Assembly (NCBI RefSeq): GCF_003668955.1
Contig: NZ_RAWO01000002.1
Span: forward strand, 279,605 to 343,604
From: Corallococcus sp. AB038B
Lineage (GTDB): Bacteria; Myxococcota; Myxococcia; Myxococcales; Myxococcaceae
Direction: 5' to 3'
Length of the DNA stretch: 64,000 nucleotides
The notes under the pieces were generated by a model, which was not told where the DNA came from, ran no database searches, and saw nothing but the letters and a program-made list of their open reading frames with translations. Every line of letters starts with the position of its first letter. Position 1 is the first letter of the stretch. This document shows positions 19,118 to 58,956 of this stretch, piece after piece. A program made the translations under genes and the position numbers.

Positions 19118-19275
19118 TGCTGGAATGGAGCGGGTTGTAGGTGCTTGGAAGCACATGGCCTCCTGTTCAATCCAGCTCCCTCCGTGGTATCCGCATACTT
19201 TTGCGCCCCGCGAGGCCGGGGCCCGGTCCGCTCCCGAGACGTACGCATGCAACCACTGACACGAGGGGTCTTGTC

Positions 19276-20049
19276 ATGACGTCGGCAACTATTCTCCGCT
19301 GGCGGTCCCCCACGTTCCGTCTCTTGATTCCCGCGACGTTGTCGGTGGGCCTGTTGACCAGCTGCGAAAGCCCCCAGGACAAGGTTGTTCGTGGCTTGAT
19401 GGAGACCAAGGCGTGTAACGGCTGTCAGTTGGTCGGGGTGCGACTGGAAGGGGCTGTGTTGCCAGGGGCTCAGCTCCGGGACGCCGCCCTGCGGGAAGCA
19501 CAGCTAGCCCGGGCGAATCTGCGTGGCGCGGACCTGAGTGGGGCCTCGCTGGCTGCGACCGACCTGCGGCATGCCGAGTTGCAAGGCGCCCTCTTCGAAG
19601 GGGCCTATCTGACAGGCACCCAATTCCAGGACGCCAATCTGGAAGGGGCGGACCTTCGTGCGGCACGCTCCCTGGAAAGCGCTGACTTCACAGGTGCGAA
19701 TCTGCGGAAGGCTCAGCTTTCAGGCAGCAGTTTTTTTGGCCCAGACGGTCCGTATCAGCGCACCGAGCGCTCCCACTTCTACTCTGTCCCCAGCGGTGGG
19801 GCGAGCTTGCCTCGGGCGGACCTGCGAGCCGCGGACTTGAAGAACGCGGTCCTCGCATCCTGCAACCTGCAAGGCGCCCAACTTCAGGGCGCCAGCTTGC
19901 GCGATGCTTCGCTGGAGGGCGCTGACCTTCGCGGCGCGAATCTCCAGGATGCGGACCTGCATGGAGCCCGGCTTGAGCGAGCCATCTGGGTGGATGGCAC
20001 ACGCTGTGGGCCTGGCTCCATTGGCCGCTGCACCCCCGAGAAGCCATGA
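19276..20049 (+). CDS. Pentapeptide-repeat lipoprotein
   Basis: Lipobox LLTSC, then successive A(D/N)L..A.L pentapeptide repeats. Confidence 0.7.
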   Translation: MTSATILRWRSPTFRLLIPATLSVGLLTSCESPQDKVVRGLMETKACNGCQLVGVRLEGAVLPGAQLRDAALREAQLARANLRGADLSGASLAATDLRHAELQGALFEGAYLTGTQFQDANLEGADLRAARSLESADFTGANLRKAQLSGSSFFGPDGPYQRTERSHFYSVPSGGASLPRADLRAADLKNAVLASCNLQGAQLQGASLRDASLEGADLRGANLQDADLHGARLERAIWVDGTRCGPGSIGRCTPEKP

Positions 20050-20058
20050 CCGTCCGTC

Positions 20059-21912
20059 TCAGCGTCTCAGGCTGTTGATCTGCTCCTCGATGAGGGCGCG
20101 GACCTTGGGATACAGCTTTTTTCGGCTGACGGAATGTGAAACCCGCATGAAGTAGGACAAGCCTCCGATAGAAACGGGAGGCGTGAACTCAAGCTTGTTC
20201 CGAGCAAGGGGGGACGGTTCAACAGCCTTATAGGGAACGTTCATGCCGCTCGCCTTGGGAAGAGCCTGCATGAACGGAGAAGAAACCAGGGTGACCTCCA
20301 ATTGCCCGACGCTTCGTTCCTTGAGAATGCCAACATGGGTCTCGAGCACTGCGCACAGCTCCGCGAGTGCCGCGACCGCTGGAATGCTGATCATTCCGCT
20401 GGCCTCGCGGAAGAGTCTCCCCGGATCGGTTGGAAGCGCCATCAGATTGGACGGCAGGTACTTGTTTGCTTTCAGCCAGACCACCAGCCAGTCAAGTGTG
20501 CGCCGGATCGTGGTGACGGTTTTTCCCTGTTCGGCGATCAGCGTGCTCACAGGGGCATGATTCGCCAGAAGGGTGAAGACGAGGTTCATCAAATCAGTTC
20601 GAGCGACGGTACTGGCATATCTGGCTTCACACTTTTCCAGCCGGCCAACGAAGTTGTCGAAGTTGGCATCAAGATGGAACTGCGCGTACTTGTCCTCCTT
20701 GGTGACGTCGACGTCGACGATCCGGTTCGCGAAGGGCGATTGCGCGTACTGGGCCTTGGGGGATGAAGTCGTGTTGTCGAATTTGTGGATCTGTTGCTCA
20801 AGGACCTGGGCAAGCAGGTCCCACAATGGACCGCTCAGGGTCTTCGGATTGATTTGAAGGAGCTTGGAGACGGCTCTCAGGGGGCTTGAGACATTCAAGT
20901 CGTCGAAAAAGCCCATGAGCGGGTAGCGTCCGCTGGCCTTTCGGGCCTGGAACGCCTTGAGCGCTGGCGACAGGCTGGTCTCGACTTTGTTCAGCTCGGC
21001 CTGAAGCCGATTGGCGAGATCGTTGTTGATGATCTGTCGATTCTTTGGGGCATCGCCTGTCATCTCCACGGGCACGTCGAACTTGATGACGTTGTTGAGC
21101 GCGCAGATGACCTCGCGGGCCTTGGCAAGGGCGGTCTTGACGCTGTTGAGGGTGTTGATGCAGCTGTCGTAGAGCGCCTTCCCCTTGGCCGGATCCATCA
21201 ACAGCTTCAAGTCAATCCATAGGGAAGGGTCGGCATCCTTGAGTCTCGTGGACTTGACGGCGTCCTCGAACACACGGGTGTCGAACGTTATCTTCTTGAG
21301 CTGGGCGCCGAAGTCGTCGAATTCGGACCGCTTGAAGGCATCGTGAAAAGGGAGGAGTGAGAAGTCGGCAACGACCCTCTGGGTCAGGTCGTATTTGTTG
21401 TAGACGTTGATGATCTTGCACTCCTTGTGGAGTGCCTTGGTGTTGACGTGGTGTTGCTTCGTGAAGAACGGTGTCGAGAGATAGGTGATGCTGCGGATCT
21501 TCCAGCGCTGGGGCCATGCGACGGCTGCCTGGGCCGTCAGTTCGTTGATGACATTCCCGCCATGTGAATGGCCAATGAGATGGAATGCGACTTCCTGGTT
21601 GAGGAAGCCCTTGTAGTAGGCGCTTTTCCCGTTGGCGCCACAGAGGCGGTTGGCCAGGTAGGTCCCCGCGATCGTACGGTTGGACGAGCCATTGTCCCCC
21701 GTCCATCCGTGAGCCGTGAAGATATGGACATTGGTGTAACGCTTGTGGATTTCGTCGATGGCAAGCCACAGGTCAGGGTTTTCCTGCCAGTACCAGTCTG
21801 GGTCGTTGATGCTTTTCTTGCGCTGATAACTCGCGGAGCGCGCCTTCAAGTCGCTGTTGACCGGGTCTACTGTTCCGCTCACCAAGACGATGATGTTGGG
21901 AATGTCGGACAT
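20059..21912 (-). CDS. Alpha/beta-hydrolase-fold protein, putative lipase/esterase (GHSHG nucleophile elbow); no signal peptide
   Basis: N-terminus MSDIPNIIVLVSGT..HGWTGDN....FHLIGHSHGGNV, followed by a ~400-aa helical C-terminal region. ATG at 21912; the ORF-track extension is rejected. Confidence 0.55.
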   Translation of the reverse strand: MSDIPNIIVLVSGTVDPVNSDLKARSASYQRKKSINDPDWYWQENPDLWLAIDEIHKRYTNVHIFTAHGWTGDNGSSNRTIAGTYLANRLCGANGKSAYYKGFLNQEVAFHLIGHSHGGNVINELTAQAAVAWPQRWKIRSITYLSTPFFTKQHHVNTKALHKECKIINVYNKYDLTQRVVADFSLLPFHDAFKRSEFDDFGAQLKKITFDTRVFEDAVKSTRLKDADPSLWIDLKLLMDPAKGKALYDSCINTLNSVKTALAKAREVICALNNVIKFDVPVEMTGDAPKNRQIINNDLANRLQAELNKVETSLSPALKAFQARKASGRYPLMGFFDDLNVSSPLRAVSKLLQINPKTLSGPLWDLLAQVLEQQIHKFDNTTSSPKAQYAQSPFANRIVDVDVTKEDKYAQFHLDANFDNFVGRLEKCEARYASTVARTDLMNLVFTLLANHAPVSTLIAEQGKTVTTIRRTLDWLVVWLKANKYLPSNLMALPTDPGRLFREASGMISIPAVAALAELCAVLETHVGILKERSVGQLEVTLVSSPFMQALPKASGMNVPYKAVEPSPLARNKLEFTPPVSIGGLSYFMRVSHSVSRKKLYPKVRALIEEQINSLRR

Positions 21913-21959: not shown

Positions 21960-22943
21960 TCACCACCCGCCGCTGGCGCCACCTCCGCCGGAACGACCGC
22001 CCATTCCCTTGAACGCGGTCTCCGTCAGCGGCTGGCTCTTCAACGCGGGATGGAGATCCAGCAGGTACTGGACCCACTTCTTCGCGTTGAGCTCCCGCGG
22101 CGTTTCGAATTCCGCCTTCCGGCGATACACGCCCCGCCATTCAGGTTGGGTTGCCCAAAGAGAGGCACCGTCATCCGTGCCATAGGTCTTGGGGTGGCCT
22201 ACGTTCAGACGGAAGCCCTTGGAGTGGACGTAGTTCGCGAGCAGGTTGCTCCAGAGGGAGATGATGGTCTCGCGGATGTCGACGAAGATCCCGGGATCCA
22301 CCTCCATGAGCTTGAACAGGAGCAGCGAGGATCGCTCGACCGCCGAGGACTCCAGGTAGAAGACGGGGGTGGGGCCGCCACTGTAGGGCGTGAACTTACC
22401 GCTTTCGACCTTGCCGACCTGGAGACTCCCTGCGTTCCATCCGGGCATCCCTGGCTGCAGGAGGCCGAAGACCCAGGACCGGCGGCCCGCGAGGAAGTGA
22501 TACGCATTGTATTGAATCAAGACGGAGAGCGCCGAAAGCGGCAGGATCGACAGGGGCTTCTCCAGGCCCTCCGAGAAGTTGCGCTTGAGCGTCTGCGCGG
22601 CGAACCCCTTGTTGGGATCCTGCCAGAGGACGTGGACCCAATCGCTGTGGAAGTCAGGCAGGTTGATGCCCAGCGCCGCGAGCTTGACGTCGAGCAGGAA
22701 GCGAAGCGTCCGGGTTTGCTCGAACTGCCGGGTCGACCAGGCCACGCTCGCCTGGTTCTCCTGCATGTTCTTGCCGAGCCCATTGAAGAACTTGGGAAAG
22801 TCCTTGGTGAACTCCGCCACGAGCAACGGGAGCTGCTTCTGCGGATCGCCCTGGAGCCCGGGGACGCTGAAGTGGATCCGGAATTGATTCACATGGAAGT
22901 TGCCACTGCCCCTGGCGATCTTGAGCTCCGTGAAGTCCATCAT
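21960..22943 (-). CDS. Hypothetical protein with a Gly-rich C-terminus
   Basis: 327 aa, no recognisable motif, C-terminus GMGGRSGGGGASGGW. Sandwiched between the two hydrolase genes. Confidence 0.45.
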   Translation of the reverse strand: MMDFTELKIARGSGNFHVNQFRIHFSVPGLQGDPQKQLPLLVAEFTKDFPKFFNGLGKNMQENQASVAWSTRQFEQTRTLRFLLDVKLAALGINLPDFHSDWVHVLWQDPNKGFAAQTLKRNFSEGLEKPLSILPLSALSVLIQYNAYHFLAGRRSWVFGLLQPGMPGWNAGSLQVGKVESGKFTPYSGGPTPVFYLESSAVERSSLLLFKLMEVDPGIFVDIRETIISLWSNLLANYVHSKGFRLNVGHPKTYGTDDGASLWATQPEWRGVYRRKAEFETPRELNAKKWVQYLLDLHPALKSQPLTETAFKGMGGRSGGGGASGGW

Positions 22944-22958: not shown

Positions 22959-24725
22959 TTACCGGGGACCAGAAGAGCGCTGTGCCGAGCTTCTTCCCAG
23001 GCTCCCCTGGTTGATGAGGGGTAGCCTCGTCGCCACGTACGTATTGTCACGGTCCATGGTCAGCCGGTCCGGTTGAAGCATCTTTGCGTCGAATTTCGGA
23101 GGAGGAAGATGCAGCGACTTGATGACAAGGCCTTGCATTCCCCCCACTTCATCGAGTGCGACCTTCAGCGTCACAAGCGGAGGAAGGAGTGTGCGAGCGA
23201 GTTTGGGCAGGGGAGAGTCGTAAGACATAACCTCTTTCATGAAGGACTTGCCCGGAGCCCCCATGATCGCGTCGATCTGCTTCATCACCGACCGGTAGAG
23301 TCCCGGGATATTGAGCACCCCCAGGCGTTTCTGTCGCATCTCCTCGACGATGGGGCTGTGGATGTTGTCGTTGGACTGGCCGGATGACTGGGGGCCTACC
23401 GTGAGCCGGGTGCGTTTGGTGGTCCCGTTGGGGCCCAGCAAGCGCTGGCTGTGGAGAGCCCCAAGCGCCCCTCCCACGCTTTTGGCAGCATCGTAGTCCC
23501 CTCCGGCCCAGGCGATTAGCCCCGCAGAGAGCAGTTCCTTGATGTTGGAGGTCCTCATCGCCGCTGGGAACAGCTCCCTCTTGACGACGATCTTGAGGAC
23601 GATGGTCAGCACATCGGTGAGGAGATCATCTACCTTGCGCAGAGAGCCATTCTTGAGAAGCCTCCGCAGCTCCGCCGTGGCGGCTCCCTCCAGGATGGTG
23701 GCGCTGCCTGCAAGCAACGTCTCGCCTGCGAGTGAGACGACATCTCCCTGGGTGAGATAATGAGTCGCCAGCGGACCCTTGGGGGACTTGAGGCGGTTCG
23801 CGGTCTTTCTATCGACGCCGGGTGAGTTGAAGGTCACCACCTGGAGAACCGAGTCCCCGAAATCGACCGCCACCCGCTGCGCCATGGCGCCACCCAGGCT
23901 GTGTCCGACGACAACGATGTCCTTCCTGCCAATGCGCGTCAGCAGTGTCTGGAAGAGCGCGCGGGTCTGCTTGAAGGCAGTTGCGCCAACCCCTGCGGGG
24001 TCCATGTCCGCGACGGCATCAGGTGCCTTCTCGAACTCGGTGCCGCGGACCGCGATGATGGGATGGTTTCCACGGGATGGCTGCAGCCAGTAGGCGAACA
24101 CGCCATGGGTCTTGTTATGGGGGTCGCTGCCCTCCATCTGGACAATGGTGTAGTACAGGGGCTGTATGCCCGGCTTCTTGGAGTAGGGGCGTTTGGTTGA
24201 GACGGCATAGGTCGCCGGGAACTTCAGCTCGGGCATTGCCCAGAGCTCCGGCGTTTCAGCGCGATACAGGAACCTGTCGACCTGGATGCCAGCCCGTGTG
24301 CCGCCGCCCTGGTTGTTCAGATAGGCGAAGTCGTGAGCCAGGTACTCGTAGAACTCGTGGTCGGGCGTGAAGTCCTCGGCCAATGGCTCGGGTGGCGCCT
24401 TGGGCATGACGATGGGCCGCGTGGCAACCCGGGTGTTGTCCTGGAGGATGTGCTGGGTCTGTCGACGGAGCGCGTTCAGATCAATACGAAGCGCATTGGA
24501 AGGCGACGCGTGTGTCTTTGCCGCTCCCGAGCCGGACGCCACCGCCAACACGTTGGACTCCGGGATGTAGACCTTGTCACCCGGTTTGATGTGGTCGGGA
24601 TTGGGTCGTGCCTTCCGGAGCGCGGCGTTTCGTGGGTCTTTGTATACGACGCGCCAGTCCGCGATCCGGTAGGACACCGCGATGCTGTACAGGGACTCTC
24701 CAGCCTTGACGACATGCTGGGTCAT
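22959..24725 (-). CDS. LysM domain + class-3 lipase (Lipase_3) fusion protein; no signal peptide
   Basis: N-terminal LysM (HVVKAGESLYSIAVSYRI...IKPGDKVYIP). Lipase_3 signatures IIAVRGTE and VVGHSLGGAMAQ. Its ATG overlaps the stop of the giant upstream gene as ATGA. Confidence 0.65.
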   Translation of the reverse strand: MTQHVVKAGESLYSIAVSYRIADWRVVYKDPRNAALRKARPNPDHIKPGDKVYIPESNVLAVASGSGAAKTHASPSNALRIDLNALRRQTQHILQDNTRVATRPIVMPKAPPEPLAEDFTPDHEFYEYLAHDFAYLNNQGGGTRAGIQVDRFLYRAETPELWAMPELKFPATYAVSTKRPYSKKPGIQPLYYTIVQMEGSDPHNKTHGVFAYWLQPSRGNHPIIAVRGTEFEKAPDAVADMDPAGVGATAFKQTRALFQTLLTRIGRKDIVVVGHSLGGAMAQRVAVDFGDSVLQVVTFNSPGVDRKTANRLKSPKGPLATHYLTQGDVVSLAGETLLAGSATILEGAATAELRRLLKNGSLRKVDDLLTDVLTIVLKIVVKRELFPAAMRTSNIKELLSAGLIAWAGGDYDAAKSVGGALGALHSQRLLGPNGTTKRTRLTVGPQSSGQSNDNIHSPIVEEMRQKRLGVLNIPGLYRSVMKQIDAIMGAPGKSFMKEVMSYDSPLPKLARTLLPPLVTLKVALDEVGGMQGLVIKSLHLPPPKFDAKMLQPDRLTMDRDNTYVATRLPLINQGSLGRSSAQRSSGPR

Positions 24726-27700
24726 GACGCCCGCTCCTTCTGGAGCTGATTCCGCCGTCCCTGGCGTGCCAGCCCCAGGCCCAGCAGGAGCAGCAGTGCC
24801 AGTGCCGCGCCGCCATCCCCGCTGGTTCCACAGGCGCAGCCGCCGCCCGTGCCTCCCAGCGTCCGGGCCTGGCCCTTCAGCGTGAGCGAGGCCTCCGCCG
24901 TCGTCTCTCCTCGCAGGCGCAGCTTCAGCGTTCCTTCCGCGGGGCCTCCCACCTCTCCGTGGAAGGTGACGCTCACCGTCGTCTGGGCTCCCGGCGCCAG
25001 CTCCGCGTCCAGGGCGCTCGCGTCGATCACGAACGCCGGGTTGGTGTTCTCCACCACGCTCAACCTCGCCGGCGACGCGGACTGGTTCGTGAGCGTCACC
25101 GTGCGCGCCGTGCTGGTGGCGCCAATGTCCACCCAGCCCAGATCCAACTCGAACGGCTCGATGGTCAGGAAGCTGGCCACCGAGATGCCCGAAAGGGCCA
25201 CCAGCGCCGCGCGCTCCTGGTCCTTCGTGCCCACGACCAGCGTCGCCCTCGACGCGCCAATCTGCGTGGTGTCGTACTTCAAATCCAACGTCAGCGAGTC
25301 ACCCTGCGGCAGGGCACGGCCTTCCGCTCCCAGGATGGGAGACAGCACCACGAAATTCGCGGCCTGGGGCCCCTCCACCTTGGGTGGCATCACCACCAGC
25401 TCCTGGGTGCTGTCGTTGATGAGCACCACCTTGGTCGTCGCCGGCTCCGCCTGGCGCACGGTGCCGAAGTCCACCGTGCGGTTGAGCGCCCGGAACACCG
25501 TGGAGAGCCCCCGGCCTGACAACGATACCTGCGCGTTCGGAGACTCAAGGTCGCTCGTCACCACCAGGAGGTTGGCCTTCGACGTGACGTCCGGACGGGG
25601 GACGAACTTGACGGAGATTTCCCTCGACTCCTGGGCCGCCAGCGTGAAGGGGAGCGTGGGCGCTGAATCCAGGCTGAAGTGCGAGGGCTCGGAGTTCTCC
25701 GCCGCGCCGATGATTTCCAGCCCGCGCACCACCAACGGCTGGAGTGATTCGTTGGTGAGCCGCACGGAACGGATCGCCGAGGCGGAGGACTCGGCCACCC
25801 GCGCGCCAAACTCCAAGGTGGGCGTGGACAGGCTGAGCTGATTCGTCCGGCCCTGGCCCTTCAGCTGCACGAGCATGGTGCTCGTCTGGCTGTCTTCGGA
25901 GGTGATGCGCAGTTCCGCGGAGTAGGGCTGCTGGGTGCCCGGGCGGAACTGGACCGACACATCCATGCTGTTTCCTGCGTTCAGCACCAGCGGTAGCGAA
26001 GGCTTCTGCAGGATGAACGACGTCGGATCCGCCGCGTTCAGCGAGATGTCCTCCACCTTGAGCGTGCTCGATTCCGTGCCTGCGCCCCCGGAGCCAGCCG
26101 GCAGTGCATGGGTCAGCCTCAGTACGATGGCCTCCGAGGTCGTGTTCACCCGGACGCCTCCAAAATCAAGCGACCCGTCGAAGGCCTGGGCGTCCTTGCG
26201 GGTCACCGCGAGCCTTGCCAGCGTGGCCATTCCCTGCAGGCCGAGCTCCAGCGGAGCCTGGGAGGATGCCTCCACCCGCACCGAGGCCTTGGTCGTCCTG
26301 AGTCCGCCCGTCGCCCCCTGAGGGGTGAACCGAAGCTTCACGGAGGCACTGCCATTCGCGGGCACCCTGGGCAGCGTTTCCTGCACGGAGAACTCCGAAC
26401 TCCCCGGAGGGAGCGTCACGGAGATGTTCGCGTCGGTGATGCCTGTATTGGTCACCGTCACCGTCTTTTCCAGGAACGAGCCGAAGTTCACGCGCCCGAA
26501 GTCGATACTGGAGGGCGACAGGCTCACGCCGCCCACTCCATCCACAATCAGCTTCACGATGGTGCCTGACGGCTCCGCGTTGCTGGAGATGGTCAGGTTG
26601 CGCTCGATGGTGAGGAGTTGGGTGGGCTTTGCCGAGATGTAGACGTAATGCTCAAGGCCGGGGGCCACCGTGAAGATGGGCCCGGGCACGTTGGGGCTCA
26701 GGGAGGATTGGCAAGCCGTGGTTTGCTGCGAGTCCTCGCGCAGGCAGAACTGGTCCGGGACCTCCACGGCATAGACCACCAGCGGGGCCTTGCCGATGTT
26801 CTTCACCACCAGCCTCTTTGAATCCCCTTCGACATTGAGCGCCTGAGGCGCGAATTCGGGAGCGCCGCCGGGCAGCGTCAACACGGGGATGGTGCCCCGG
26901 CCCGAGACCGTGATGGTCTGGATCTGGCTGTCGCTCGAATTGCTCTGCACCTGCACGGTTCCAGTCACATCCTGCGCGACGTCAGGAGTGAAGGTGACGT
27001 CGAGCAGGGCGGACTCACTTCGCTGGAGGAAAACGGGGAACTGCGGGTTGTTCTGCAGCATGGCCTTGAAGGGGCCGATCGCCGTCGACACATTCTTGAT
27101 TTCGAGTGGGGCGGAGCCGATGTTCTTCAGCACGACGGTCTGGGTGCTGGAGGTTTGCCGGGGAACTTCGTTGAAAACGAGCTGCGTCGGGTTCATCTGC
27201 AGCTGTGCCACGGCGGCAACGCCGGACAGCTTGACGACCAGGCCCGCCGTGGCAGGCGGCTTCGTGGCGAGTGAGAGATTGGCTGAGTAGTTGCCAGAGA
27301 GCTGTGGAGCGAACGTGACATCGATCTGGCGCGTGCCATTCACCGGAACGATGGCGTTGGGCCAACCAAGGACGTCGATGTTGAACGTCCCGAGGTTGGC
27401 TGCCACCTCCGCCAGATCAACGTCAACATGTCCTGTGTTGATGATGTCCAGGGAAAGCGTGTTGGAGCTGCCCGGCTGCGTGGCGGTGAAAATCAAGTCC
27501 GCCTTCGACGTGGTGAATCTGGCCTCCGCGCCAAACCCCACGAGTGGGAAGCTGCGCGTCGTCCTGAGATTGCTCGTGGTCCCCAGGTAGGTGATCTCCA
27601 GGCGGGCCTCGTACTTCAGGTCCTCGATGATGGGACTGAAGGTCACCCGGAAGGGCTGGGGGCGCTTCACGCCCTTCTCGAGCACGGGCTCGGAGCTGTT

Positions 27701-30580
27701 GACGTTGTCCACGAAGAACGCCGTGCCGGACGGCTCGATGTGGATGTCGGTGACCTTCAGTGGCTCGGAGGCGGTGCTGCTGTTGGTCACGTTGAGGCTG
27801 ATGTCTGCGTGGATGAGCTTGTTCTGCTTGTAACCAAAGTTGATCTCGGTCGCGGTGAAGATGGCGTTGGGACCATTGGAGTTGCCCTTCACGACGAGCA
27901 CGGGCGGCAGCTGCCGGTCATTCGTGGTGAAGAAGCGCAGCCGCGTCTCCAGGTCGCCCGTGCTGGTCAGGGGACGGAAGCGCACCTTCACCTTGGTCTC
28001 TCCGCCTGGCTGCACGGTCTGGGGCAGGAAGTCGACGACCTGGAACAAGGCGTCGCTTTCCGCGGTGACCTTCGACAGGAACAGGGCCTGGTTGCCGGTG
28101 TTGCGCAAGGTCGCATCGGCCGTGGACTCTCCGCCGGGCGCCACGTTGGGCAACGTCAAGGGGTTGTTGACCAGGAACAGCTCAGGGGCGAACGCCTGTC
28201 CGGTGAGTGCCACGGGGGGCACGGGCTGCGAGGCATCCGTCTGGAGTTGGAGCGTCTTCGAATAGGTACCCGAGGTGGTCGCGGCGAAGGCCACCGTCAC
28301 CGCGGCGGTACCCCCGTTCTTCGCGACGGTCAGGCCCTCCGCCGGAATGCCGGAGATCGTGAACGGGGTCAGGACCCCGGGGGACACGGGGAACACCTTG
28401 ATGGGCCAGTTGGTGCTGTTCGAGAGGATCACCTGCTGGGTCGGGTACGGGTCGCCGACGGTGTAAACAGCGAAGGCCAGGGTGGTCGTGCTGACCGCCA
28501 GCGTGGTCTTGCGCGCGGTGCCATGGAGGGGAACGCTGGTCACGCAGGAGGTGGTGGGCGACGTGCCGAAGGTGAGCACGCCATTCACGGCACCGCTCTC
28601 GTTGGGGCCGGGGTTGAACGTGATGAAGAGCTCACGCCCCGCCGGGCCTGGCGCCAGGGTGAACGCCGTGCTGGGGCTCACGGAATAGGCGCTGCTCCCC
28701 GTCGTCACGGTGGGCGTCACCGTCAGCGGGACCGACCCTGTGTTGGTCACCGTCACCTTCTTCTGCTCACTGCCCACGTCTCCTGCCTCCTGTTCGGCGA
28801 ATTCGAACGAAAGGGGGTCGATACCCAGGCAGGCGTTGCCCGGCGTCGTGGTGCCGGACAGATTGAGTTCGGGGGCGGCGGTGTCGTTGCTGGTGAAGGT
28901 GAGCTTGCCGGTCGTGGCGCTCGTCGGCGTCGGGTGGAAGATCAGCTGCAGGCGCTGGGTATCTCCGGGCGCGAGGCTGAAGGTGCCCGAGGTGTCCACC
29001 CGGAAGGGTGAGTCCTGTGGCAGCGTCATCTGGGTCACCGTGAGCAGGCTGTCCCCGCCGTTCTTGACCGTGACCTCCTGGGGAGCGCTGTCGGTGTTGA
29101 AGGGCGTCTGCGCAAAGGCAATCGCGGTGCGGCTCAAGACGAGCTTCGGGCTGGATGGCGTGGTGCCTGAGAGCGTCAGGGACTGATCGGCGACATTGCT
29201 CTTGATGACCAGGGTGTCGGAGGCAGCCCCGGACGCACCCGGCCGGAACGTCACATTCAGGCGTTGGGTCCCCCCCGGGGCGATGCTGAAGGGGGCCGAT
29301 GTATCCACCCGGAAGGCGGAGCCCTGGCTCAACGCCAGTTGGGTCACGTTGAGCGCACTGCCGCCTTCGTTCCGGAGCGTGACCTCCTGGGGGATGCTGT
29401 CTGTGTTCAGCGGCGTCTGCGGGAAGACCATCGTCGTGCGGCTCAAGACGAGCTTCGCGGGAACGACCGCCGGAGTCGCGCCAGCCAGCGTGACGGCGGG
29501 CACGTCGGTGCCGGCGATGGTGAGGCTGAGGGTGTGGTTCCAGGTGCCCGTCACCGTCGGGCGGAACGTCACCCCCAGACGTTGGGTGCTGCCCTTCGCG
29601 AGGCTGAAGGGGCCCGTGGTGTCGACGCGGAACGGTGAGTTGGCGGGCAGCTTGACCTGGCTCACCGAGAGCAGTCCGTCGCCGTCGTTCCGGACGATGA
29701 CCTCCTGGGTGACGCTGTCGGTGTTCACCGGCGTGGCCTCGAAGGCCAGCGCGGTGCTGCTCACATAGAGCTTCGCGGGGGACAGCCCCTCACCGGTGAG
29801 CATGGCGGTTGGCGGGGCGGGGCACACGGCGGACGCGCTCGTCAGGAAGAGCGAGCCCGAGACGGGGCCCAGGTCGTTAGCGGTCAGGGGAGTGAAGGTC
29901 AACGCGAGCGTCGTCGAGCTCGCGGGCGGGATGGTCACCGTGGCGCCGGACACGTTGAAGGGCGCGGTGGCGGAAGGCTCCATTGTGAAGTTCGTATTGC
30001 CCAGGTTCATCACCGTGACGTTGCGCGGTGTCGAAGAACCCAATTCATGGGCACCGAACGCCACGGACGTCTGGCCGAGGACGACCAGTGGGCCCAGGGC
30101 CTTTCCATCCAGCGTCACGACGATCGACGGGGCGGCTGGATCGTTCGTGTGCAGCGTCAGCGTGCCGTGGAAGGTCCCGGGCTGAAGCGGCTTGAATCCA
30201 ATCTTCAAGGTCCTTGCGTTCGTGCTGCTCAGGGGCGTGTTCGGCACGGGGCAGTTGGTGTCGCATTTGTTGGACGACGTGTCGAAAATGCCCTCGAAGG
30301 TGAAACCCCCGGTGACGCTCACCCGGTGAATCGTGAGCTCCGTGGTGCTGGTGTTGAACAGCTTGATGGATTTCTCCGCCGACAGAGTCTGGCACGGGGC
30401 CTGGTCGTTGAAGTTGACGAGGGTGTCCGACACGCTGAGCGCCGCCGCGGGATCCTCGGGTCGCAGCGCCGCGCCGACGGTGCTCTTGGCGGTGCCGGAC
30501 TCCGGTGCCTTCTCCACCTCGGGACCGCAGGCGGTCAGGACGCACAGTGCAGCCGTCAGGATGAACAGGATGCGTTGCAT
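24722..30580 (-). CDS. Giant (1952 aa) MYXO-CTERM-anchored surface lipoprotein built of ASH / choice-of-anchor-D-like Ig-fold repeats
   Basis: Lipobox LTAC at the N-terminus. About 15 repeats of ~100 aa (..F..T.V...S..Q.V.L.N.G...L.V..V.L.....F.V....PF.L.PG..Q.L.V.F.P...G....L...SN). C-terminal GGGCACGTSGDGG + hydrophobic helix + RQGRR matches the MYXO-CTERM sorting signal. Confidence 0.8.
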   Translation of the reverse strand: MQRILFILTAALCVLTACGPEVEKAPESGTAKSTVGAALRPEDPAAALSVSDTLVNFNDQAPCQTLSAEKSIKLFNTSTTELTIHRVSVTGGFTFEGIFDTSSNKCDTNCPVPNTPLSSTNARTLKIGFKPLQPGTFHGTLTLHTNDPAAPSIVVTLDGKALGPLVVLGQTSVAFGAHELGSSTPRNVTVMNLGNTNFTMEPSATAPFNVSGATVTIPPASSTTLALTFTPLTANDLGPVSGSLFLTSASAVCPAPPTAMLTGEGLSPAKLYVSSTALAFEATPVNTDSVTQEVIVRNDGDGLLSVSQVKLPANSPFRVDTTGPFSLAKGSTQRLGVTFRPTVTGTWNHTLSLTIAGTDVPAVTLAGATPAVVPAKLVLSRTTMVFPQTPLNTDSIPQEVTLRNEGGSALNVTQLALSQGSAFRVDTSAPFSIAPGGTQRLNVTFRPGASGAASDTLVIKSNVADQSLTLSGTTPSSPKLVLSRTAIAFAQTPFNTDSAPQEVTVKNGGDSLLTVTQMTLPQDSPFRVDTSGTFSLAPGDTQRLQLIFHPTPTSATTGKLTFTSNDTAAPELNLSGTTTPGNACLGIDPLSFEFAEQEAGDVGSEQKKVTVTNTGSVPLTVTPTVTTGSSAYSVSPSTAFTLAPGPAGRELFITFNPGPNESGAVNGVLTFGTSPTTSCVTSVPLHGTARKTTLAVSTTTLAFAVYTVGDPYPTQQVILSNSTNWPIKVFPVSPGVLTPFTISGIPAEGLTVAKNGGTAAVTVAFAATTSGTYSKTLQLQTDASQPVPPVALTGQAFAPELFLVNNPLTLPNVAPGGESTADATLRNTGNQALFLSKVTAESDALFQVVDFLPQTVQPGGETKVKVRFRPLTSTGDLETRLRFFTTNDRQLPPVLVVKGNSNGPNAIFTATEINFGYKQNKLIHADISLNVTNSSTASEPLKVTDIHIEPSGTAFFVDNVNSSEPVLEKGVKRPQPFRVTFSPIIEDLKYEARLEITYLGTTSNLRTTRSFPLVGFGAEARFTTSKADLIFTATQPGSSNTLSLDIINTGHVDVDLAEVAANLGTFNIDVLGWPNAIVPVNGTRQIDVTFAPQLSGNYSANLSLATKPPATAGLVVKLSGVAAVAQLQMNPTQLVFNEVPRQTSSTQTVVLKNIGSAPLEIKNVSTAIGPFKAMLQNNPQFPVFLQRSESALLDVTFTPDVAQDVTGTVQVQSNSSDSQIQTITVSGRGTIPVLTLPGGAPEFAPQALNVEGDSKRLVVKNIGKAPLVVYAVEVPDQFCLREDSQQTTACQSSLSPNVPGPIFTVAPGLEHYVYISAKPTQLLTIERNLTISSNAEPSGTIVKLIVDGVGGVSLSPSSIDFGRVNFGSFLEKTVTVTNTGITDANISVTLPPGSSEFSVQETLPRVPANGSASVKLRFTPQGATGGLRTTKASVRVEASSQAPLELGLQGMATLARLAVTRKDAQAFDGSLDFGGVRVNTTSEAIVLRLTHALPAGSGGAGTESSTLKVEDISLNAADPTSFILQKPSLPLVLNAGNSMDVSVQFRPGTQQPYSAELRITSEDSQTSTMLVQLKGQGRTNQLSLSTPTLEFGARVAESSASAIRSVRLTNESLQPLVVRGLEIIGAAENSEPSHFSLDSAPTLPFTLAAQESREISVKFVPRPDVTSKANLLVVTSDLESPNAQVSLSGRGLSTVFRALNRTVDFGTVRQAEPATTKVVLINDSTQELVVMPPKVEGPQAANFVVLSPILGAEGRALPQGDSLTLDLKYDTTQIGASRATLVVGTKDQERAALVALSGISVASFLTIEPFELDLGWVDIGATSTARTVTLTNQSASPARLSVVENTNPAFVIDASALDAELAPGAQTTVSVTFHGEVGGPAEGTLKLRLRGETTAEASLTLKGQARTLGGTGGGCACGTSGDGGAALALLLLLGLGLARQGRRNQLQKERAS
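28840..29780 (-). repeat. Three near-identical tandem ~310-bp repeats inside the giant gene (approximate bounds)
   Basis: Repeated peptides PAKLVLSRT..F.QTP.NTDS.PQEVT..N.G.S.L.VTQ..L.Q.S.FRVDTS..FS.APG.TQRL in the translation. Confidence 0.5.
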
Positions 30581-30589: not shown

Positions 30590-31105
30590 TCAGTTCTCGG
30601 CGTGGAGGGCCGGGGCCTTGGCGGAAGAGGAGGGTGGAGGCTTCGGGGCGGCGGGCGGCTCGGGCGGCTTCGCCGCGTCGTCGCTTTCCTTGGGCGCCGC
30701 GGGCTGCGTTCCCGTGCGGATGCGCCCTTCGAGCAGCTCGATGTCCAGCGAGCCGGGCGTGGGCGTGTTGACGAACTGCTGCCAGGTGCCGTCCGGTGCG
30801 GTGAACAGGAACGACACCGCCACCGGCGCGGCGGCGTCCGGCAGCGGCACCTTCAGGCGCTGCAGCGTTCCCGGATAGATGAGCGCGGACAGCAGCACGT
30901 CCGCGTCCGGTTGGAAGATGCGCGCGGAGACCTCGCCGTAGGACTCCACGGCGAACTGCTTCGGGTCCACCTTGCGCACCAGCATGTACAGCGGCCGGCC
31001 CTGGTTCGTCCCGGACGGCGCCTTCACGCTCAGGTGCAGCGTGCTCGGCTGGCACGCGGCCAGGAAACACAGCGCCAACGGGATACAGCTCGCCCACGGT
31101 TTCAT
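30590..31105 (-). CDS. tssJ: Small outer-membrane lipoprotein, putative TssJ
   Basis: Lipobox LAAC, a ~120-aa beta-rich core and a P/A-rich tail. Its ATG overlaps the tssM stop as ATGA. Assignment rests on size, lipoprotein nature and its position after tssM. Confidence 0.5.
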   Translation of the reverse strand: MKPWASCIPLALCFLAACQPSTLHLSVKAPSGTNQGRPLYMLVRKVDPKQFAVESYGEVSARIFQPDADVLLSALIYPGTLQRLKVPLPDAAAPVAVSFLFTAPDGTWQQFVNTPTPGSLDIELLEGRIRTGTQPAAPKESDDAAKPPEPPAAPKPPPSSSAKAPALHAEN

Positions 31106-34100: not shown

Positions 34101-34803
34101 GCAGCGGCACGAGGTGCGCGCGCAAGAGCTTCGCGAAGTCCGCGTAGCCCTCGCGCTCATCCAGGTGGGTGAGGCATACGCGCGTCTCGAACGCGCCTCC
34201 GCGGACCTCCGCCAACAGGTTCAGCTTGCCTCGCAACAGCTGCGCCGCGCGGCGCACCTCGTCCGGGGGCGTGTCCTGAAGCCAGCGCGCGTCCAGCACC
34301 AGCACCGCCAGCGCCTGCTGACCGCCGCCGAAGCTGTCCTTCCACAGCCGGCGCAGGGCCTCGCGCGCCTGGGGCGACTCGTCCTCCAACAGCTGCGGGG
34401 ACACCTCCTGGGCCACCACGTCCGCGCCCAGGTAGATCTGGAGCAGCGAGTCCGTGAGGAGGCTGGGCAGGAACTGCCGCGCCTGCCGCTTCCAGTCCAG
34501 GTCCAGCTCGATGAGCCGCGACTTGCCCGCGCCCGCAGGGCCCAGCACCACCACACCTGGCAGGTCCCGTACCGCCACGCGGTGGCGCAGCGGCAGCCCG
34601 GCCAGGAACTTCTCGCGCACCTTGCGCAGCCGGTTCTTCGCCAGGGGCTCCGGCGCGGCGGCCCCTCCGGCCGGCGCGCTCTTGCGCTTCGCGCGCCACA
34701 CGAGGAACAGCGGCACGAAGAGGGCCAGCAGCGCCAGGAGGATCAGCGCGTACGGCTTCCACTTCGGCGGAATGAACGCCGTCAGTTTCTTGAGGACATC
34801 CAT
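31102..34803 (-). CDS. tssM: T6SS membrane subunit TssM (IcmF family)
   Basis: 1233 aa. N-terminal TM helices, Walker A GPAGAGKS and a long periplasmic IcmF-like C-terminal region. Confidence 0.85.
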   Translation of the reverse strand: MDVLKKLTAFIPPKWKPYALILLALLALFVPLFLVWRAKRKSAPAGGAAAPEPLAKNRLRKVREKFLAGLPLRHRVAVRDLPGVVVLGPAGAGKSRLIELDLDWKRQARQFLPSLLTDSLLQIYLGADVVAQEVSPQLLEDESPQAREALRRLWKDSFGGGQQALAVLVLDARWLQDTPPDEVRRAAQLLRGKLNLLAEVRGGAFETRVCLTHLDEREGYADFAKLLRAHLVPLRFPLPPPGQEPKLGSLLKAQEQYLALGLTALPVESFERLERFYSEGHAPFEALSRFVTALMEGQTLAYAPRLATVSLSSADKDARDPDVLSVSAEASTAKAVHERYMHTHLRRAALLGLAFALPLLAAYGHFAWRLGQARTRVQRFEDMVQRMRDQGQEVSGVAVQEPVLAAGQSLDSLWRAMNAWPLLRYSFTGAREDLRQRLARGIREAHIRPALEKCHRQPDTCRPEQVVYLLATLHGSREEPLGQLVLSSLKTRPTWSFVSEGSEVESPGDVAALEAGRTWVTAVGLNESLVADYVVMSNPPWSAPDTPEASWARWPFPEPLTLEAQLMPWQAHLRRLQDLLGNRAVEPRELERLDAELESMQDERRRLQALLDDSARFSSLPRALELLAASEARVDTSRFRGIPSTLKTVAWINDHRDALTNVLRMEEEAYLGVKAVQKMTVAELLVRDGLWLPGNGPAVLQVPVLQSTFEFRPKDGSRLLHQALLRYHEKTGRLPFGVVEGEEAVASRGGATLAADRLEFDTRLRPLVDEFTTRIKGAGLPVEEVSQRQEHVRRKVNQFAFQYRNRLFQRVSTYRFQAVIPALLAEELSRLTQPSSELVDMLRDVSQGVALEPLDGPFYESLRNAVAPFKPIATVMKPDETGNYTALNPYRALVAQMSDELNAVPRPGVVPAEATASLNGGLATGSAQLASGAAKLPELLTPLGRLAFAMMLEDDTSYLRKVDAWLDQQGLIGELRQPFRQPFLAVRDLGQREIERTLERHWDDASSRFLRPLLNRYPFTPDATQEVDPGDLEVLRKQDGAFWEFVTRVLAPVCEERGSEWVPRGALQSRLSLPQGMLPTLGRLSRLARMLWDPEGRPRPLMLQVMPLPLPKAPTQGSFVTLGSLKCGKTTFLAYNQSPSWQEFPLAWWDQQTASLMLEVRAPADQSVQYASLEKSRSAWSCFRLLESSQSTEDPQHRRWSLRARGALSTDGMMDLRFGLKGEPWIPFREVPR

Positions 34804-34806
34804 GGT

Positions 34807-35121
34807 TCAGCGCTCCCCCCAGCCCAGGACGCGCCCAGCCCGGCCCGAGCGATGCAGGGCCTCCAGGACGTCCTCCAACGTGTCCACCATGCCCGCGAAC
34901 GACGCGCGCGCCTTCTCCTGCTCCTCCGGTGACAACCGCGCGTCACCCGGCCCCGGCATCAGGCGGGCCAGCGTCTGGCCCAGTTCGTCCAGCATGGGTT
35001 CCAGGCCAAAGGTCCCGACCCCCAGGCGCGCGGCGATGAGCCGCCGCACCTCCTGGAGCAGGGCGGGCGCGGCGTCGATGGGGGGCGCGGGCGGAGTCTG
35101 GGGAGCGGCTTGAGGCTTCAC
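34807..35121 (-). CDS. Small hypothetical protein (104 aa) between tssL and tssM
   Basis: GTG start overlaps the tssL stop as GTGA. Its stop lies 4 nt before the tssM ATG. GC-rich codon bias. The ORF-track N-terminal extension is rejected. Confidence 0.4.
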   Translation of the reverse strand: MKPQAAPQTPPAPPIDAAPALLQEVRRLIAARLGVGTFGLEPMLDELGQTLARLMPGPGDARLSPEEQEKARASFAGMVDTLEDVLEALHRSGRAGRVLGWGER

Positions 35122-35756: not shown

Positions 35757-35767
35757 CGCGCCCCCCG

Positions 35768-55538: not shown

Positions 55539-55548
55539 AACCAGGAGG

Positions 55549-58955: not shown

Positions 58956-58956
58956 C

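What the first reader, a model, noticed from the sequence alone, without database searches (positions are those of the whole stretch)
22959..24725. LysM-class-3-lipase fusion without a signal peptide, ATGA-coupled to the giant surface protein
A peptidoglycan-binding LysM domain is fused to a Lipase_3 catalytic domain (RGTE and GHSLGG). It lacks any Sec or Tat signal and lies directly downstream of T6SS structural genes. T6SS lipase effectors of the class-3-lipase type exist, but a LysM anchor would be unusual. LysM would retain the enzyme in a target cell's periplasm. Alternatively it acts on the producer's own envelope.
Basis: partly seen in the sequence, partly recalled or inferred. Interest (0 to 1): 0.6.

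Follow-up and report, generated by a model that had tools for sequence, protein, structure and literature searches.

The report
LysM-headed lipase cargo of a T6SS
This Corallococcus gene encodes a signal-less protein with an N-terminal LysM domain and a class-3-type lipase domain that is most likely a toxin fired by the neighbouring type VI secretion system; LysM heads are already a known, recurring loading handle on such toxins, so only the LysM-lipase pairing is new.

Summary
Window 22959-24725 (-) encodes a 588-aa protein with LysM at residues 4-56, a Lipase_3 core (RGTE 227-230, GHSLGG 274-279, Asp328), no signal peptide, and an ATGA overlap with a 1952-aa surface lipoprotein. It is the next gene after tssK-dotU-tssM-iglE-giant.

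The gene looks like T6SS cargo:
- Its GC3 is 0.77, against 0.92-0.95 for the core T6SS genes.
- It occurs only in a few Corallococcus.
- The same slot holds other toxins in related loci.
- The same lipase module occurs elsewhere behind a DUF4157/eCIS head.

The LysM is not an oddity. It belongs to a large subfamily (1396 representatives) that almost always starts at residue 2-5 with no signal peptide. These heads carry PG_binding_1, PAAR, peptidase, amidase or hydrolase tails. In at least 15 of 50 sampled genomes the gene lies next to a full-length vgrG. Wang et al. 2023 showed by co-immunoprecipitation that such LysM heads mediate effector-VgrG binding. The most likely role is therefore spike loading, possibly with peptidoglycan tethering as well.

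No lipase-specific immunity gene was found. The conserved 327-aa neighbour belongs to the T6SS locus, not to the lipase. Verdict: a new variant of a known kind, of moderate interest.

The parts
22959..24725 (-). LysM-lipase gene, 588 aa
   Evidence: ORF and translation. Orthologues of 85-99% identity occur only in Corallococcus. GC 0.62 and GC3 0.77, against 0.92-0.95 for core T6SS genes.
24555..24725 (-). N-terminal LysM head, residues 1-57. It is the long-loop subtype with the motif W24..Y28..N33A..R40PNP..I.PGD50..IP55.
   Evidence: Pfam LysM. Full-length alignment to the SafA LysM and to the phage gp61 tail-tube-initiator LysM. 1396 relatives. In 102 of 114 motif-bearing hits the domain sits at the extreme N-terminus.
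24405..24554 (-). Linker, residues 58-107 (Ala/Ser/Gly-rich, then RIDLNALRRQTQ...)
   Evidence: No domain hit. Low pLDDT. The homology to P0005 (DUF4157 head) starts only after this stretch, at about residue 108.
23691..24404 (-). Alpha/beta-hydrolase, class-3-lipase-like core, residues 108-345. Conserved features: EFYEYLAHDFAY helix, RGTE (nt 24036-24047), GHSLGG with Ser276 (nt 23889-23906), VTFNSPG, HY..GD328VVS (Asp codon 23742-23744).
   Evidence: Pfam Lipase_3 at 29 bits. Precomputed PF26363 'Phospholipase-like' on orthologues. Invariant columns in the alignment of 13 homologues. The eight best Foldseek hits to solved structures are a feruloyl esterase A and fungal lipases that I recognise as the class-3 (Lipase_3) fold (E 1.6e-4 to 2e-3), from a low-confidence model.
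22962..23690 (-). C-terminal helical region (residues 346-545) plus a disordered Pro/Arg-rich tail (546-588). Contains the candidate catalytic His residues H425 and H456.
   Evidence: AF2 predicts long helices with pLDDT 46-88. No Pfam hit. Non-synonymous changes equal or exceed synonymous ones against orthologues: 45/31 and 50/32.
24722..24725 (-). ATGA start/stop overlap with the upstream gene
   Evidence: Sequence. Not conserved: there is a 97-nt gap in Corallococcus sp. M7, and another gene lies in between in C. carmarthensis.
24722..30580 (-). Giant 1952-aa surface protein. It has a lipoprotein signal (..LTAC), at least 8 HYDIN/ASH Ig-like repeats and a MYXO-CTERM-like tail.
   Evidence: Translation. 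Pfam. Conserved after iglE in L001, L003, L004 and L005. 'MYXO-CTERM' is my reading of the sequence; it was not tested against a model.
21960..22943 (-). Conserved 327-aa T6SS-locus protein with no signal peptide, 16 nt downstream of the lipase
   Evidence: Present in related T6SS loci with or without the lipase. Lies upstream of the lipase in C. carmarthensis. AF2 pLDDT 76. Only weak START/Bet v 1-like fold hits, E about 4e-3.
20059..21912 (-). Second putative hydrolase cargo, 617 aa, GHSHGG motif
   Evidence: Translation. Weak Abhydrolase_1 hit. GC3 0.76. The same slot holds DUF3304 plus a Tle1-like gene in strain M7.
19273..20049 (+). Pentapeptide-repeat lipoprotein (lipobox LLTSC), tail-to-tail with the 617-aa hydrolase. 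Candidate immunity protein for that hydrolase, not for the LysM-lipase.
   Evidence: Translation. Pfam and NCBIfam pentapeptide hits. GC3 0.70. Absent from the M7 locus, which does carry the LysM-lipase.
30590..37627 (-). Upstream T6SS membrane-complex and baseplate genes on the same strand: iglE-type tssJ 30590-31105, tssM 31102-34803, dotU/tssL 35118-36104, tssK 36374-37627
   Evidence: Pfam. NCBIfam.
37742..47091 (+). Divergent T6SS operon: tssB 37742-38497, tssC 38548-40065, iglI 41462-42433, a 543-aa ORF 43789-45420 (weak VgrG-like), tssF 45424-47091
   Evidence: Pfam. NCBIfam IglI_fam at 232 bits. hhalign of the 543-aa ORF against a VgrG profile gives E 0.039 and probability 1.3%, which is weak.

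Best explanation
The gene encodes a cargo effector of the adjacent type VI secretion system.

1. It is made in the cytoplasm, without a signal peptide (shown).
2. It is probably co-transcribed with tssK-dotU-tssM-iglE-giant (inferred from strand, overlaps and short gaps).
3. Its N-terminal LysM head serves mainly as the address label that docks the protein onto the VgrG-type spike complex. This is inferred from the VgrG linkage of its closest LysM relatives and from published co-immunoprecipitation of other LysM-headed effectors.
4. After firing into a prey cell, the class-3-lipase-type domain hydrolyses ester bonds of membrane lipids and damages the envelope. The predicted residues are the Ser276 nucleophile in GHSLGG, Asp328, and a His that is not yet assigned (H425 or H456) (inferred).
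5. The LysM may additionally hold the enzyme on peptidoglycan in the prey periplasm (possible, untested).
For: Context.
- The gene follows tssM-iglE-giant on the same strand, with an ATGA overlap.
- GC3 is 0.77, against 0.92-0.95 for the core T6SS genes, and GC dips to 0.58-0.62 over 20-24 kb.
- Orthologues occur only in four Corallococcus clusters.
- The gene changes place relative to the conserved 327-aa gene between species.
- In related loci the same slot holds other toxins: Tle1-like plus DUF3304, PG_binding_1 plus GH19, PG_binding_1 plus AHH.

Modularity.
- The same lipase module (37% identity) sits behind a DUF4157/eCIS_core head in P0005, and occurs with RTX repeats in cyanobacterial proteins.
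- The same LysM head (51% identity) sits on an unrelated GHSRGG hydrolase in P0064.
- It also sits on Peptidase_C70, Amidase_2, PAAR and PG_binding_1 tails.

VgrG linkage of the head.
- 15 of 50 genome loci encoding this LysM subtype have a full-length vgrG within a few kb.
- In at least 10 of them vgrG ends immediately upstream on the same strand.
- Some of these loci also carry TssF-TssG-ClpV upstream.

Literature. LysM and PG_binding_1 are conserved vgrG-locus domains fused to toxin N-termini. Deleting LysM abolishes VgrG binding of BRPE_05220. The stand-alone LysM protein Kalk_10460 bridges VgrG and its effector (PMC10673891).

Enzyme. Lipase_3 scores above its cut-off. GxSxG, RGT and GD motifs are invariant in the family. 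The best fold hits are a feruloyl esterase A and fungal lipases that I recognise as the class-3 (Lipase_3) fold.
Against: - No recognisable vgrG lies next to the gene. The spike of this divergent T6SS is not identified; there is only a weak hhalign hit for the 543-aa ORF.
- No lipase-specific immunity gene is present, although antibacterial Tle lipases normally have a periplasmic one.
- The catalytic His is not assigned.
- The structure model is poor: mean pLDDT 54, with the LysM head unmodelled.
- Substrate specificity cannot be read from sequence.
- I could not show that the experimentally tested LysM proteins (Ketobacter, Burkholderia) belong to the same LysM subfamily.
- An eCIS is also encoded about 30 kb away.
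- Nothing here shows secretion or toxicity.
Confidence: 0.55

Rival explanations
1. One reading: it is a T6SS lipase effector, but the LysM is a true peptidoglycan (or chitin) anchor. Its job is to retain the enzyme in the prey periplasm or cell wall, not to load it.
For: - The domain is a genuine LysM by sequence; it matches cell-wall-binding LysMs at E 1e-7 to 1e-6.
- About half of its closest relatives also carry a second, unrelated peptidoglycan-binding module, PG_binding_1 (31 of 65 and 16 of 37). This points to peptidoglycan as a common ligand.
- Neighbouring-slot effectors in related loci carry PG_binding_1.
- LysM on T6SS peptidoglycan hydrolases is common in Acinetobacter (PMC6833914).
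Against: - The strict N-terminal position, the invariant subfamily-specific loop (N33, R40-P-N-P) and the vgrG adjacency are not explained by peptidoglycan binding alone.
- PG_binding_1 is itself one of the vgrG-locus 'recruitment' domains of Wang et al..
- Published co-immunoprecipitations show a protein-protein role.
- The two roles are not mutually exclusive.
Confidence: 0.22
2. It is cargo of the extracellular contractile injection system encoded at about 53-64 kb of the window, or of another T6SS elsewhere in the genome. It is not cargo of the adjacent T6SS.
For: - The window also holds an eCIS: sheath, gp19 tube, CIS_tube, gpD-like and gp25 genes.
- The closest non-Corallococcus relative of the lipase module carries the eCIS-associated DUF4157 head.
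- The LysM relatives are linked to canonical VgrG proteins, whereas the adjacent system is divergent.
Against: - The gene is about 30 kb from the eCIS and is embedded in the T6SS operon with a start/stop overlap.
- It carries LysM, not DUF4157.
- None of the 50 LysM-subtype loci gave hits to the window's eCIS sheath, tube or gp25.
- The slot is a cargo slot in several related T6SS loci.
Confidence: 0.08
3. The hydrolase domain is not a lipase. It is an esterase acting on a cell-wall-associated substrate (for example O-acetyl or other ester groups on glycans), with LysM providing substrate proximity.
For: - The best fold hit is feruloyl esterase A, a class-3-lipase-fold enzyme that is not a lipase.
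- The Pfam scores are modest.
- LysM normally accompanies cell-wall enzymes (PMC10673891).
- No periplasmic lipase-immunity gene is present.
Against: - Orthologues match PF26363 'Phospholipase-like'.
- The other cargo in this slot includes Tle1-type lipases.
- A long amphipathic helical C-terminal region is more suggestive of membrane interaction.
- There is no positive evidence for a glycan substrate.
Confidence: 0.1
4. It is a non-toxic accessory protein that works on the producer's own envelope or on the giant surface protein, for example in T6SS assembly or lipid remodelling.
For: - Translational coupling to the giant lipoprotein in this strain.
- No immunity gene is present.
Against: - It has no export signal, so it cannot reach its own periplasm unaided.
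- The coupling is not conserved.
- The gene is absent from most loci that have the giant protein and the T6SS.
- It has a foreign base composition.
Confidence: 0.05

Closest known systems
LysM-headed T6SS effectors and stand-alone vgrG-locus LysM proteins (Burkholderia sp. RPE67 BRPE_05220, LysM-NlpC/P60; Ketobacter Kalk_10460), Wang et al. 2023, PMC10673891
   Same: LysM sits at the N-terminus of a T6SS-linked toxin with no signal peptide. The head is modular and combines with many toxins. The relatives of this head lie directly after vgrG.
   Different: [quoted passage not shown] The gene is not next to a recognisable vgrG. The host system carries Francisella-type IglE and IglI. Subfamily identity with the tested proteins was not shown.
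Tle2 / TseL-type T6SS phospholipase effectors (Vibrio cholerae TseL, P. aeruginosa TseL-PA)
   Same: GxSxG alpha/beta-hydrolase lipase in a T6SS context. TseL-PA acts in the periplasm (PMC9927574). That TseL carries Pfam Lipase_3 is from my memory, not tested here.
   Different: No adjacent immunity genes. It has a LysM head and a roughly 240-aa helical C-terminal extension. No sequence comparison with TseL could be run. Orthologues match PF26363 'Phospholipase-like'.
Acinetobacter T6SS peptidoglycan-hydrolase effectors with LysM (Tse4/Tpe4, Tae17 'LysM', Tpe18)
   Same: VgrG-linked cargo effectors that contain LysM (PMC6833914).
   Different: Their catalytic domains degrade peptidoglycan, so LysM has an obvious substrate role there. 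Here the catalytic domain is lipase-like.
DUF4157 (Pfam 'eCIS_core')-headed toxins
   Same: P0005 carries the same lipase module (37% identity, same motifs) behind a different N-terminal head. This shows head-swapping of one toxin between delivery systems.
   Different: The head is DUF4157 with HExxH, not LysM. Its genomic context is unknown (2-kb contig).
LysM proteins of contractile-tail baseplates (P2 gpX, eCIS Afp7/Pvc7 class, phage gp61 tail tube initiator, PDB 9g8s_T)
   Same: Long-loop LysM used for protein-protein contacts around the hub. The gp61 LysM aligns end to end with this head (E 4.6e-6 with the subfamily profile).
   Different: Those are structural subunits fused to tube-like domains. 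The roughly 215-aa relatives of this head carry PG_binding_1 and no CIS_tube domain. Wang et al. report that T6SS LysMs are phylogenetically distinct from eCIS and phage LysMs.

Membership tests
LysM domain (PF01476) | Sequence match to the family profile above the curated cut-off | tested here: met
   21.2 bits on the whole protein and 26 bits on residues 1-120, against a cut-off of 20.9. The subfamily profile hits solved LysM domains at E=1.5e-7.
LysM domain (PF01476) | Beta-alpha-alpha-beta fold | tested here: inconclusive
   The AF2 model has pLDDT 23-47 over residues 1-60. Only the gap-free alignment to solved LysMs supports the fold.
LysM domain (PF01476) | Binds peptidoglycan or chitin glycan | not testable with these tools
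   Needs a pull-down with sacculi or chito-oligosaccharides.
vgrG-locus LysM recruitment heads (Wang et al. 2023) | LysM fused to the N-terminus of a toxin, with no secretion signal | tested here: met
   LysM is residues 4-56 and the toxin module starts at about residue 108. 102 of 114 motif-bearing hits have the domain at the extreme N-terminus.
vgrG-locus LysM recruitment heads (Wang et al. 2023) | Encoded within a vgrG locus (downstream of vgrG) | tested here: not met
   The upstream genes are tssM, iglE and the giant protein, and no Phage_GPD gene is adjacent. The criterion is met by relatives: 15 of 50 loci. The gene is inside a T6SS cluster, but the spike gene is unidentified.
vgrG-locus LysM recruitment heads (Wang et al. 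2023) | LysM-dependent binding to VgrG | not testable with these tools
   Needs co-immunoprecipitation or a complex model.
Class 3 lipase (PF01764) | Profile match above the cut-off, and a GxSxG nucleophile elbow | tested here: met
   29.0 bits against a cut-off of 22. GHSLGG 274-279 is invariant in 13 homologues.
Class 3 lipase (PF01764) | Complete Ser-Asp-His triad | tested here: inconclusive
   Ser276 and Asp328 are invariant. The His is not assigned: H425 and H456 are candidates after an insertion of about 100 aa.
Class 3 lipase (PF01764) | Class-3 lipase fold | tested here: inconclusive
   The top 8 Foldseek hits to solved structures are a feruloyl esterase A and fungal lipases, which I recognise as Lipase_3-fold enzymes (the table itself does not name the family). 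However, TM is about 0.2/0.4 and the model's mean pLDDT is 54.
Class 3 lipase (PF01764) | Lipolytic activity | not testable with these tools
   Needs an enzyme assay.
T6SS lipase effectors (Tle1-5) | Genetic linkage to a T6SS cluster | tested here: met
   It lies in an apparent operon after tssK-dotU-tssM-iglE-giant.
T6SS lipase effectors (Tle1-5) | Adjacent cognate periplasmic immunity (Tli) gene | tested here: not met
   - The neighbours are the giant protein and the 327-aa protein. The latter has no signal peptide and is present in loci without the lipase.
- The 76-aa lipoprotein-like ORF after the C. carmarthensis gene has no counterpart here.
- The pentapeptide lipoprotein adjoins the other hydrolase and is absent from strain M7.
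T6SS lipase effectors (Tle1-5) | Belongs to one of the defined sequence families (Tle1 = PF09994/DUF2235; Tle5 = PLD) | tested here: not met
   No PF09994 or PLD hit at E<=0.01. Homology to Tle2 (TseL), Tle3 and Tle4 was not tested, because no reference sequences were available.
T6SS lipase effectors (Tle1-5) | T6SS-dependent export and toxicity | not testable with these tools
   Needs secretome and competition assays.
Sec/Tat/lipoprotein-exported enzymes | N-terminal signal peptide | tested here: not met
   The N-terminus is MTQHVVKAGESL..., with no hydrophobic stretch and no twin-arginine motif. The ORF cannot be extended upstream.

The most novel reading that the evidence does not exclude
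N-terminal heads act as interchangeable address labels between contractile injection systems: LysM routes a toxin to a T6SS spike, and DUF4157 routes the same lipase to an eCIS. In Corallococcus the LysM label would dock cargo onto the non-canonical spike of a T6SS that carries Francisella-type IglE and IglI parts. With no immunity gene present, the lipase would be aimed at non-kin prey (Gram-positive bacteria, fungi or other eukaryotes, where LysM could also bind wall glycans) rather than at sibling cells.
Probability: 0.2. Interest if true: 0.55.

Novelty: new variant of a known kind. Interest (0 to 1): 0.36.

Why it matters
If confirmed, it extends the recently proposed LysM loading-handle principle for T6SS cargo in two ways. 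It moves it from cell-wall hydrolases to a membrane-targeting lipase, and from canonical proteobacterial systems to a divergent myxobacterial T6SS with Francisella-type components.

It also gives a clean natural example of one toxin module carried behind two different delivery heads, LysM and DUF4157. That is useful for engineering cargo loading.

For myxobacterial predation it adds a candidate lytic effector. It does not open a new category of biology.

Tried and rejected
1. Full-length AF2 model. Mean pLDDT was 54 and the LysM head was unmodelled, so it was used only for a coarse fold check.
2. Sequence search of the lipase part and of the 617-aa hydrolase against PDB. Nothing significant.
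3. Hypothesis that the roughly 215-aa LysM relatives are Afp7/Pvc7-like tube initiators. Rejected: they are LysM plus PG_binding_1, with no CIS_tube domain.
4. The 327-aa neighbour as lipase immunity protein or specific chaperone. Rejected as lipase-specific.
   - It is conserved in T6SS loci that lack the lipase.
   - It has no Pfam hit even at E 5.
   - Its fold hits are only weak START-like ones.
5. Other immunity candidates.
   - The 76-aa lipoprotein-like ORF after the C. carmarthensis orthologue has no counterpart in the window.
   - The pentapeptide lipoprotein belongs with the other hydrolase.
6. Island borders. No tRNA genes and only chance-level repeats. Promoter and terminator scans were at shuffle level.
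7. Identifying the spike of this T6SS. hhalign of the 543-aa and 230-aa ORFs against a VgrG profile was weak or negative. NCBIfam was negative for the unknown ORFs.
8. Linking the head to the experimentally tested Ketobacter LysM protein. It was not among the 81 homologues of the Saccharospirillum LysM-PG_binding_1 protein.
9. Metagenome scan with the 327-aa family. It returned mostly short contigs. One locus (L083) again places the gene between tssF/G and tssB/C. No further LysM-headed cargo was found in those loci.
Full report
**What is there.** Window 22959-24725 on the minus strand is a 588-aa ORF.
- Pfam finds Lipase_3 (29.0 bits, cut-off 22), general alpha/beta-hydrolase families, and LysM. 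LysM scores 21.2 bits on the whole protein and 26 bits on the first 120 residues alone, against a cut-off of 20.9.
- The protein starts MTQHVVKAGESL. LysM begins at residue 4 and there is no hydrophobic or twin-arginine leader.
- The ORF cannot be extended upstream.
- Its ATG overlaps the TGA of the preceding 1952-aa ORF as ATGA.

**The organism and the neighbourhood.** The nearest homologues are 99% (Corallococcus exiguus) and 85-89% identical (three other Corallococcus). Beyond those, similarity drops to 37% or less and covers only the hydrolase core.

Upstream on the same strand lie:
- tssK (36374-37627);
- dotU/tssL (35118-36104);
- tssM (31102-34803);
- an IglE-type lipoprotein (30590-31105);
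- the giant ORF (24722-30580), which has a lipoprotein signal, many HYDIN/ASH Ig-like repeats and a MYXO-CTERM-like tail.

The divergent operon has tssB, tssC, an IglI-family gene (NCBIfam 232 bits, cut-off 100) and tssF. The sheath and TssK pass the canonical equivalog models. TssM, TssF and DotU are far below theirs. This is therefore a divergent T6SS with Francisella-type accessories.

Downstream of the lipase come:
- a 327-aa protein (21960-22943);
- a 617-aa GHSHGG hydrolase (20059-21912);
- convergently, a pentapeptide-repeat lipoprotein (19273-20049).

**The gene behaves as movable cargo.**
- Base composition is foreign. GC3 is 0.77 for the lipase, 0.76 for the 617-aa hydrolase and 0.70 for the pentapeptide gene. 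It is 0.92-0.95 for tssM, tssK, tssC, iglE and carB (GC profile).
- In Corallococcus sp. M7 the order is giant, lipase, 328-aa, 361-aa, DUF3304, Tle1-like.
- In C. carmarthensis it is giant, 326-aa, lipase.
- In Corallococcus sp. bb12-1 and in two metagenomic relatives the lipase is absent. There the 327-aa gene is followed by PG_binding_1 plus GH19, by PG_binding_1 plus AHH nuclease, or by other genes.

Two conclusions follow. The 327-aa protein belongs to the T6SS locus and not to the lipase; a distant member again sits between tssF/G and tssB/C in L083. And the region after it is a variable effector slot. The ATGA coupling is strain-specific.

**The lipase module.** An alignment of 13 homologues shows these invariant features: a helix (E127..A130..Y135), R227-G228, D236, G274-x-S276-L-G-G, V-T-F-N-S-P, Y323, and G327-D328..S331.
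- Ser276 and Asp328 fit the class-3 lipase order.
- The catalytic His is not settled. H425 and H456 are candidates after an insertion of about 100 residues.
- Orthologues carry the precomputed Pfam family PF26363 'Phospholipase-like'.
- The AF2 model is poor overall (pLDDT 54), but the core reaches 63-88.
- The eight best Foldseek hits to solved structures are a feruloyl esterase A and fungal lipases (Rhizomucor, Gibberella, Yarrowia, Thermomyces, Rasamsonia), which I recognise as class-3-fold enzymes.
- The C-terminal 240 residues are helical and unannotated, and they evolve faster. Non-synonymous against synonymous changes are 45/31 and 50/32. The corresponding figures are 2/8 and 7/9 in LysM, and 11/25 and 21/21 in the core.

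**The LysM head.** This is the key point for interpretation.

Sequence relatives:
- An exhaustive phmmer search with residues 1-120 found 1396 cluster representatives at E<=1e-3.
- In 102 of 114 sequences that carry the subfamily motif, the domain sits at the very N-terminus, as it does here.
- The consensus is HxVxxGExLSSIAxxYGFxDWRxIYxxPxNAxFRxxRPNPxxIxPGDxxxIP, with invariant N33, P41 and P43 and nearly invariant R40 in a loop longer than in classical LysM.

Domain partners:
- The partners are mostly PG_binding_1 in proteins of about 215 aa (31 of 65 and 16 of 37).
- Others are Peptidase_C70, Amidase_2, PAAR, unknown large tails, and an unrelated GHSRGG hydrolase in P0064.

Genomic context:
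- A scan of one genome per species returned 50 loci from Sorangium, Acidobacteriota, Planctomycetota, Bacteroidota and Gammaproteobacteria.
- In 15 of them a full-length vgrG lies within a few kb.
- In at least 10 of those it ends immediately upstream on the same strand.
- Several also have TssF, TssG and ClpV upstream.
- None showed the window's eCIS genes.

**What the literature already says.** Wang et al. 2023 (Commun Biol 6:1195, PMC10673891) screened 130,825 vgrG loci.
- They list LysM and PG_binding_1 among six domain families that occur as stand-alone genes, as VgrG C-terminal fusions, or at toxin N-termini.
- Co-immunoprecipitation showed that a stand-alone LysM protein is needed for an effector to bind VgrG.
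- It also showed that deleting LysM from a LysM-NlpC/P60 effector abolishes VgrG binding.
- No lipase term occurs in the supplementary files that are held as text.

LysM in Acinetobacter T6SS peptidoglycan hydrolases is also well documented. A LysM head on a T6SS effector is therefore not unusual. The pairing with a lipase-type toxin is, as far as I could check, not described.

**Head swapping.** P0005, from a 2-kb metagenome contig, has the same lipase module (37% identity, all motifs) behind a DUF4157 ('eCIS_core') head. Cyanobacterial relatives combine the core with RTX repeats. Together with the LysM head on other toxins, this is the polymorphic-toxin pattern in which the head sets the delivery route and the tail is the weapon.

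**Mechanism proposed.**
- Shown: the protein is cytoplasmic, is embedded in the T6SS operon and is foreign in composition. It has a bona fide LysM head of the VgrG-linked subtype and a class-3-type hydrolase core with Ser and Asp in place.
- Inferred: the head docks the protein onto the spike of the adjacent T6SS. The hydrolase attacks membrane lipids of the prey. The head may also bind peptidoglycan.

I put 0.55 on this account. The remainder is spread over delivery by another system, a non-lipid ester substrate, and an own-envelope role.

**Weak points.**
- The spike gene of this cluster is not identified. The 543-aa ORF gives only E 0.039 and probability 1.3% against a VgrG profile.
- There is no lipase-specific immunity gene.
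- The His is unassigned.
- I could not show that the experimentally tested LysM proteins are of the same subfamily.
- Nothing here demonstrates secretion, toxicity or enzyme activity.

**Verdict.** A real and correctly described gene. It is most likely a T6SS cargo lipase with a known type of N-terminal LysM loading head. That makes it a new variant of a known kind, of moderate interest.

Noticed in passing
window 30590-47091: The T6SS cluster mixes two kinds of parts. The sheath and TssK are canonical and pass the NCBIfam equivalog cut-offs. The cluster also has a Francisella-type IglE lipoprotein (Pfam IglE_N, 105 bits) and an IglI-family protein (232 bits, cut-off 100). TssM, TssF and DotU fall far below their cut-offs, and no ClpV, Hcp, VgrG or PAAR gene is recognisable. 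A 2026 abstract states that T6SSii is unique to Francisella (PMC12955703).
   Followed up: partly
window 24722-30580 (-): A 1952-aa lipoprotein with at least 8 HYDIN/ASH Ig-like repeats and a MYXO-CTERM-like tail lies inside the T6SS operon. It is conserved between iglE and the cargo genes in four other Corallococcus-type loci (L001, L003, L004, L005). Its role in a T6SS is unexplained.
   Followed up: partly
window 21960-22943 (-); also L001 11775-12761, L003 5904-6884, L004/L005/L006 10001-10996, L083 3424-4185: A family of about 327 aa with no Pfam or NCBIfam match is consistently T6SS-linked. The AF2 model has pLDDT 76 and only weak START/Bet v 1-like (helix-grip) fold hits. It ends in a Gly-rich tail. 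It may be a new T6SS accessory or chaperone.
   Followed up: partly
window 19273-21912: A 617-aa GHSHGG alpha/beta-hydrolase (-) lies tail-to-tail with a pentapeptide-repeat lipoprotein (+, lipobox LLTSC). Both have low GC3 (0.76 and 0.70). They are a candidate second effector/immunity pair. Pentapeptide-repeat immunity would be unusual.
   Followed up: no
window about 53500-64000 (+): A second contractile system, an eCIS or phage-tail-like cluster: sheath 55462-57876, gp19-type tube 58464-58955, CIS_tube protein 59916-60788, gpD-like hub 60990-62264 and a gp25 gene within 62027-62638.
   Followed up: no
L008-L057, for example L034 7568-10642 and L018 7535-10654: Proteins of about 215 aa with LysM plus PG_binding_1 and no signal peptide (NCBI name 'PGRP and LysM peptidoglycan-binding domain-containing protein') are encoded directly after vgrG. 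This is seen in T6SS clusters of Acidobacteriota, Planctomycetota and marine Gammaproteobacteria. They are often followed by large proteins with no Pfam match (L034 10715-14452, 1245 aa; L026 10643-12919, 758 aa).
   Followed up: partly
L049 2973-4454: A 493-aa gammaproteobacterial protein fuses a PAAR domain to the same LysM subtype. It is a direct physical link between this LysM and the T6SS spike tip.
   Followed up: no
L005 12271-14634: A 787-aa protein in the equivalent cargo slot has an N-terminal PG_binding_1, hydrophobic helices in the middle and a C-terminal AHH nuclease. A peptidoglycan-binding head on a cytoplasm-acting toxin argues that such heads serve delivery rather than substrate binding.
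   Followed up: no
window 22962-23690 (-): The C-terminal third of the lipase accumulates non-synonymous changes as fast as or faster than synonymous ones between Corallococcus species. The LysM head is under purifying selection in both comparisons and the lipase core in one (25 synonymous vs 11 non-synonymous; 21 vs 21 in the other). This may reflect an interface under diversifying pressure.
   Followed up: no
L003 8742-8969: A 76-aa Cys-rich lipoprotein-like ORF lies directly after the C. carmarthensis LysM-lipase, at the end of the contig. It has a weak match to the DUF3304 gene of strain M7 and no counterpart in the window.
   Followed up: partly
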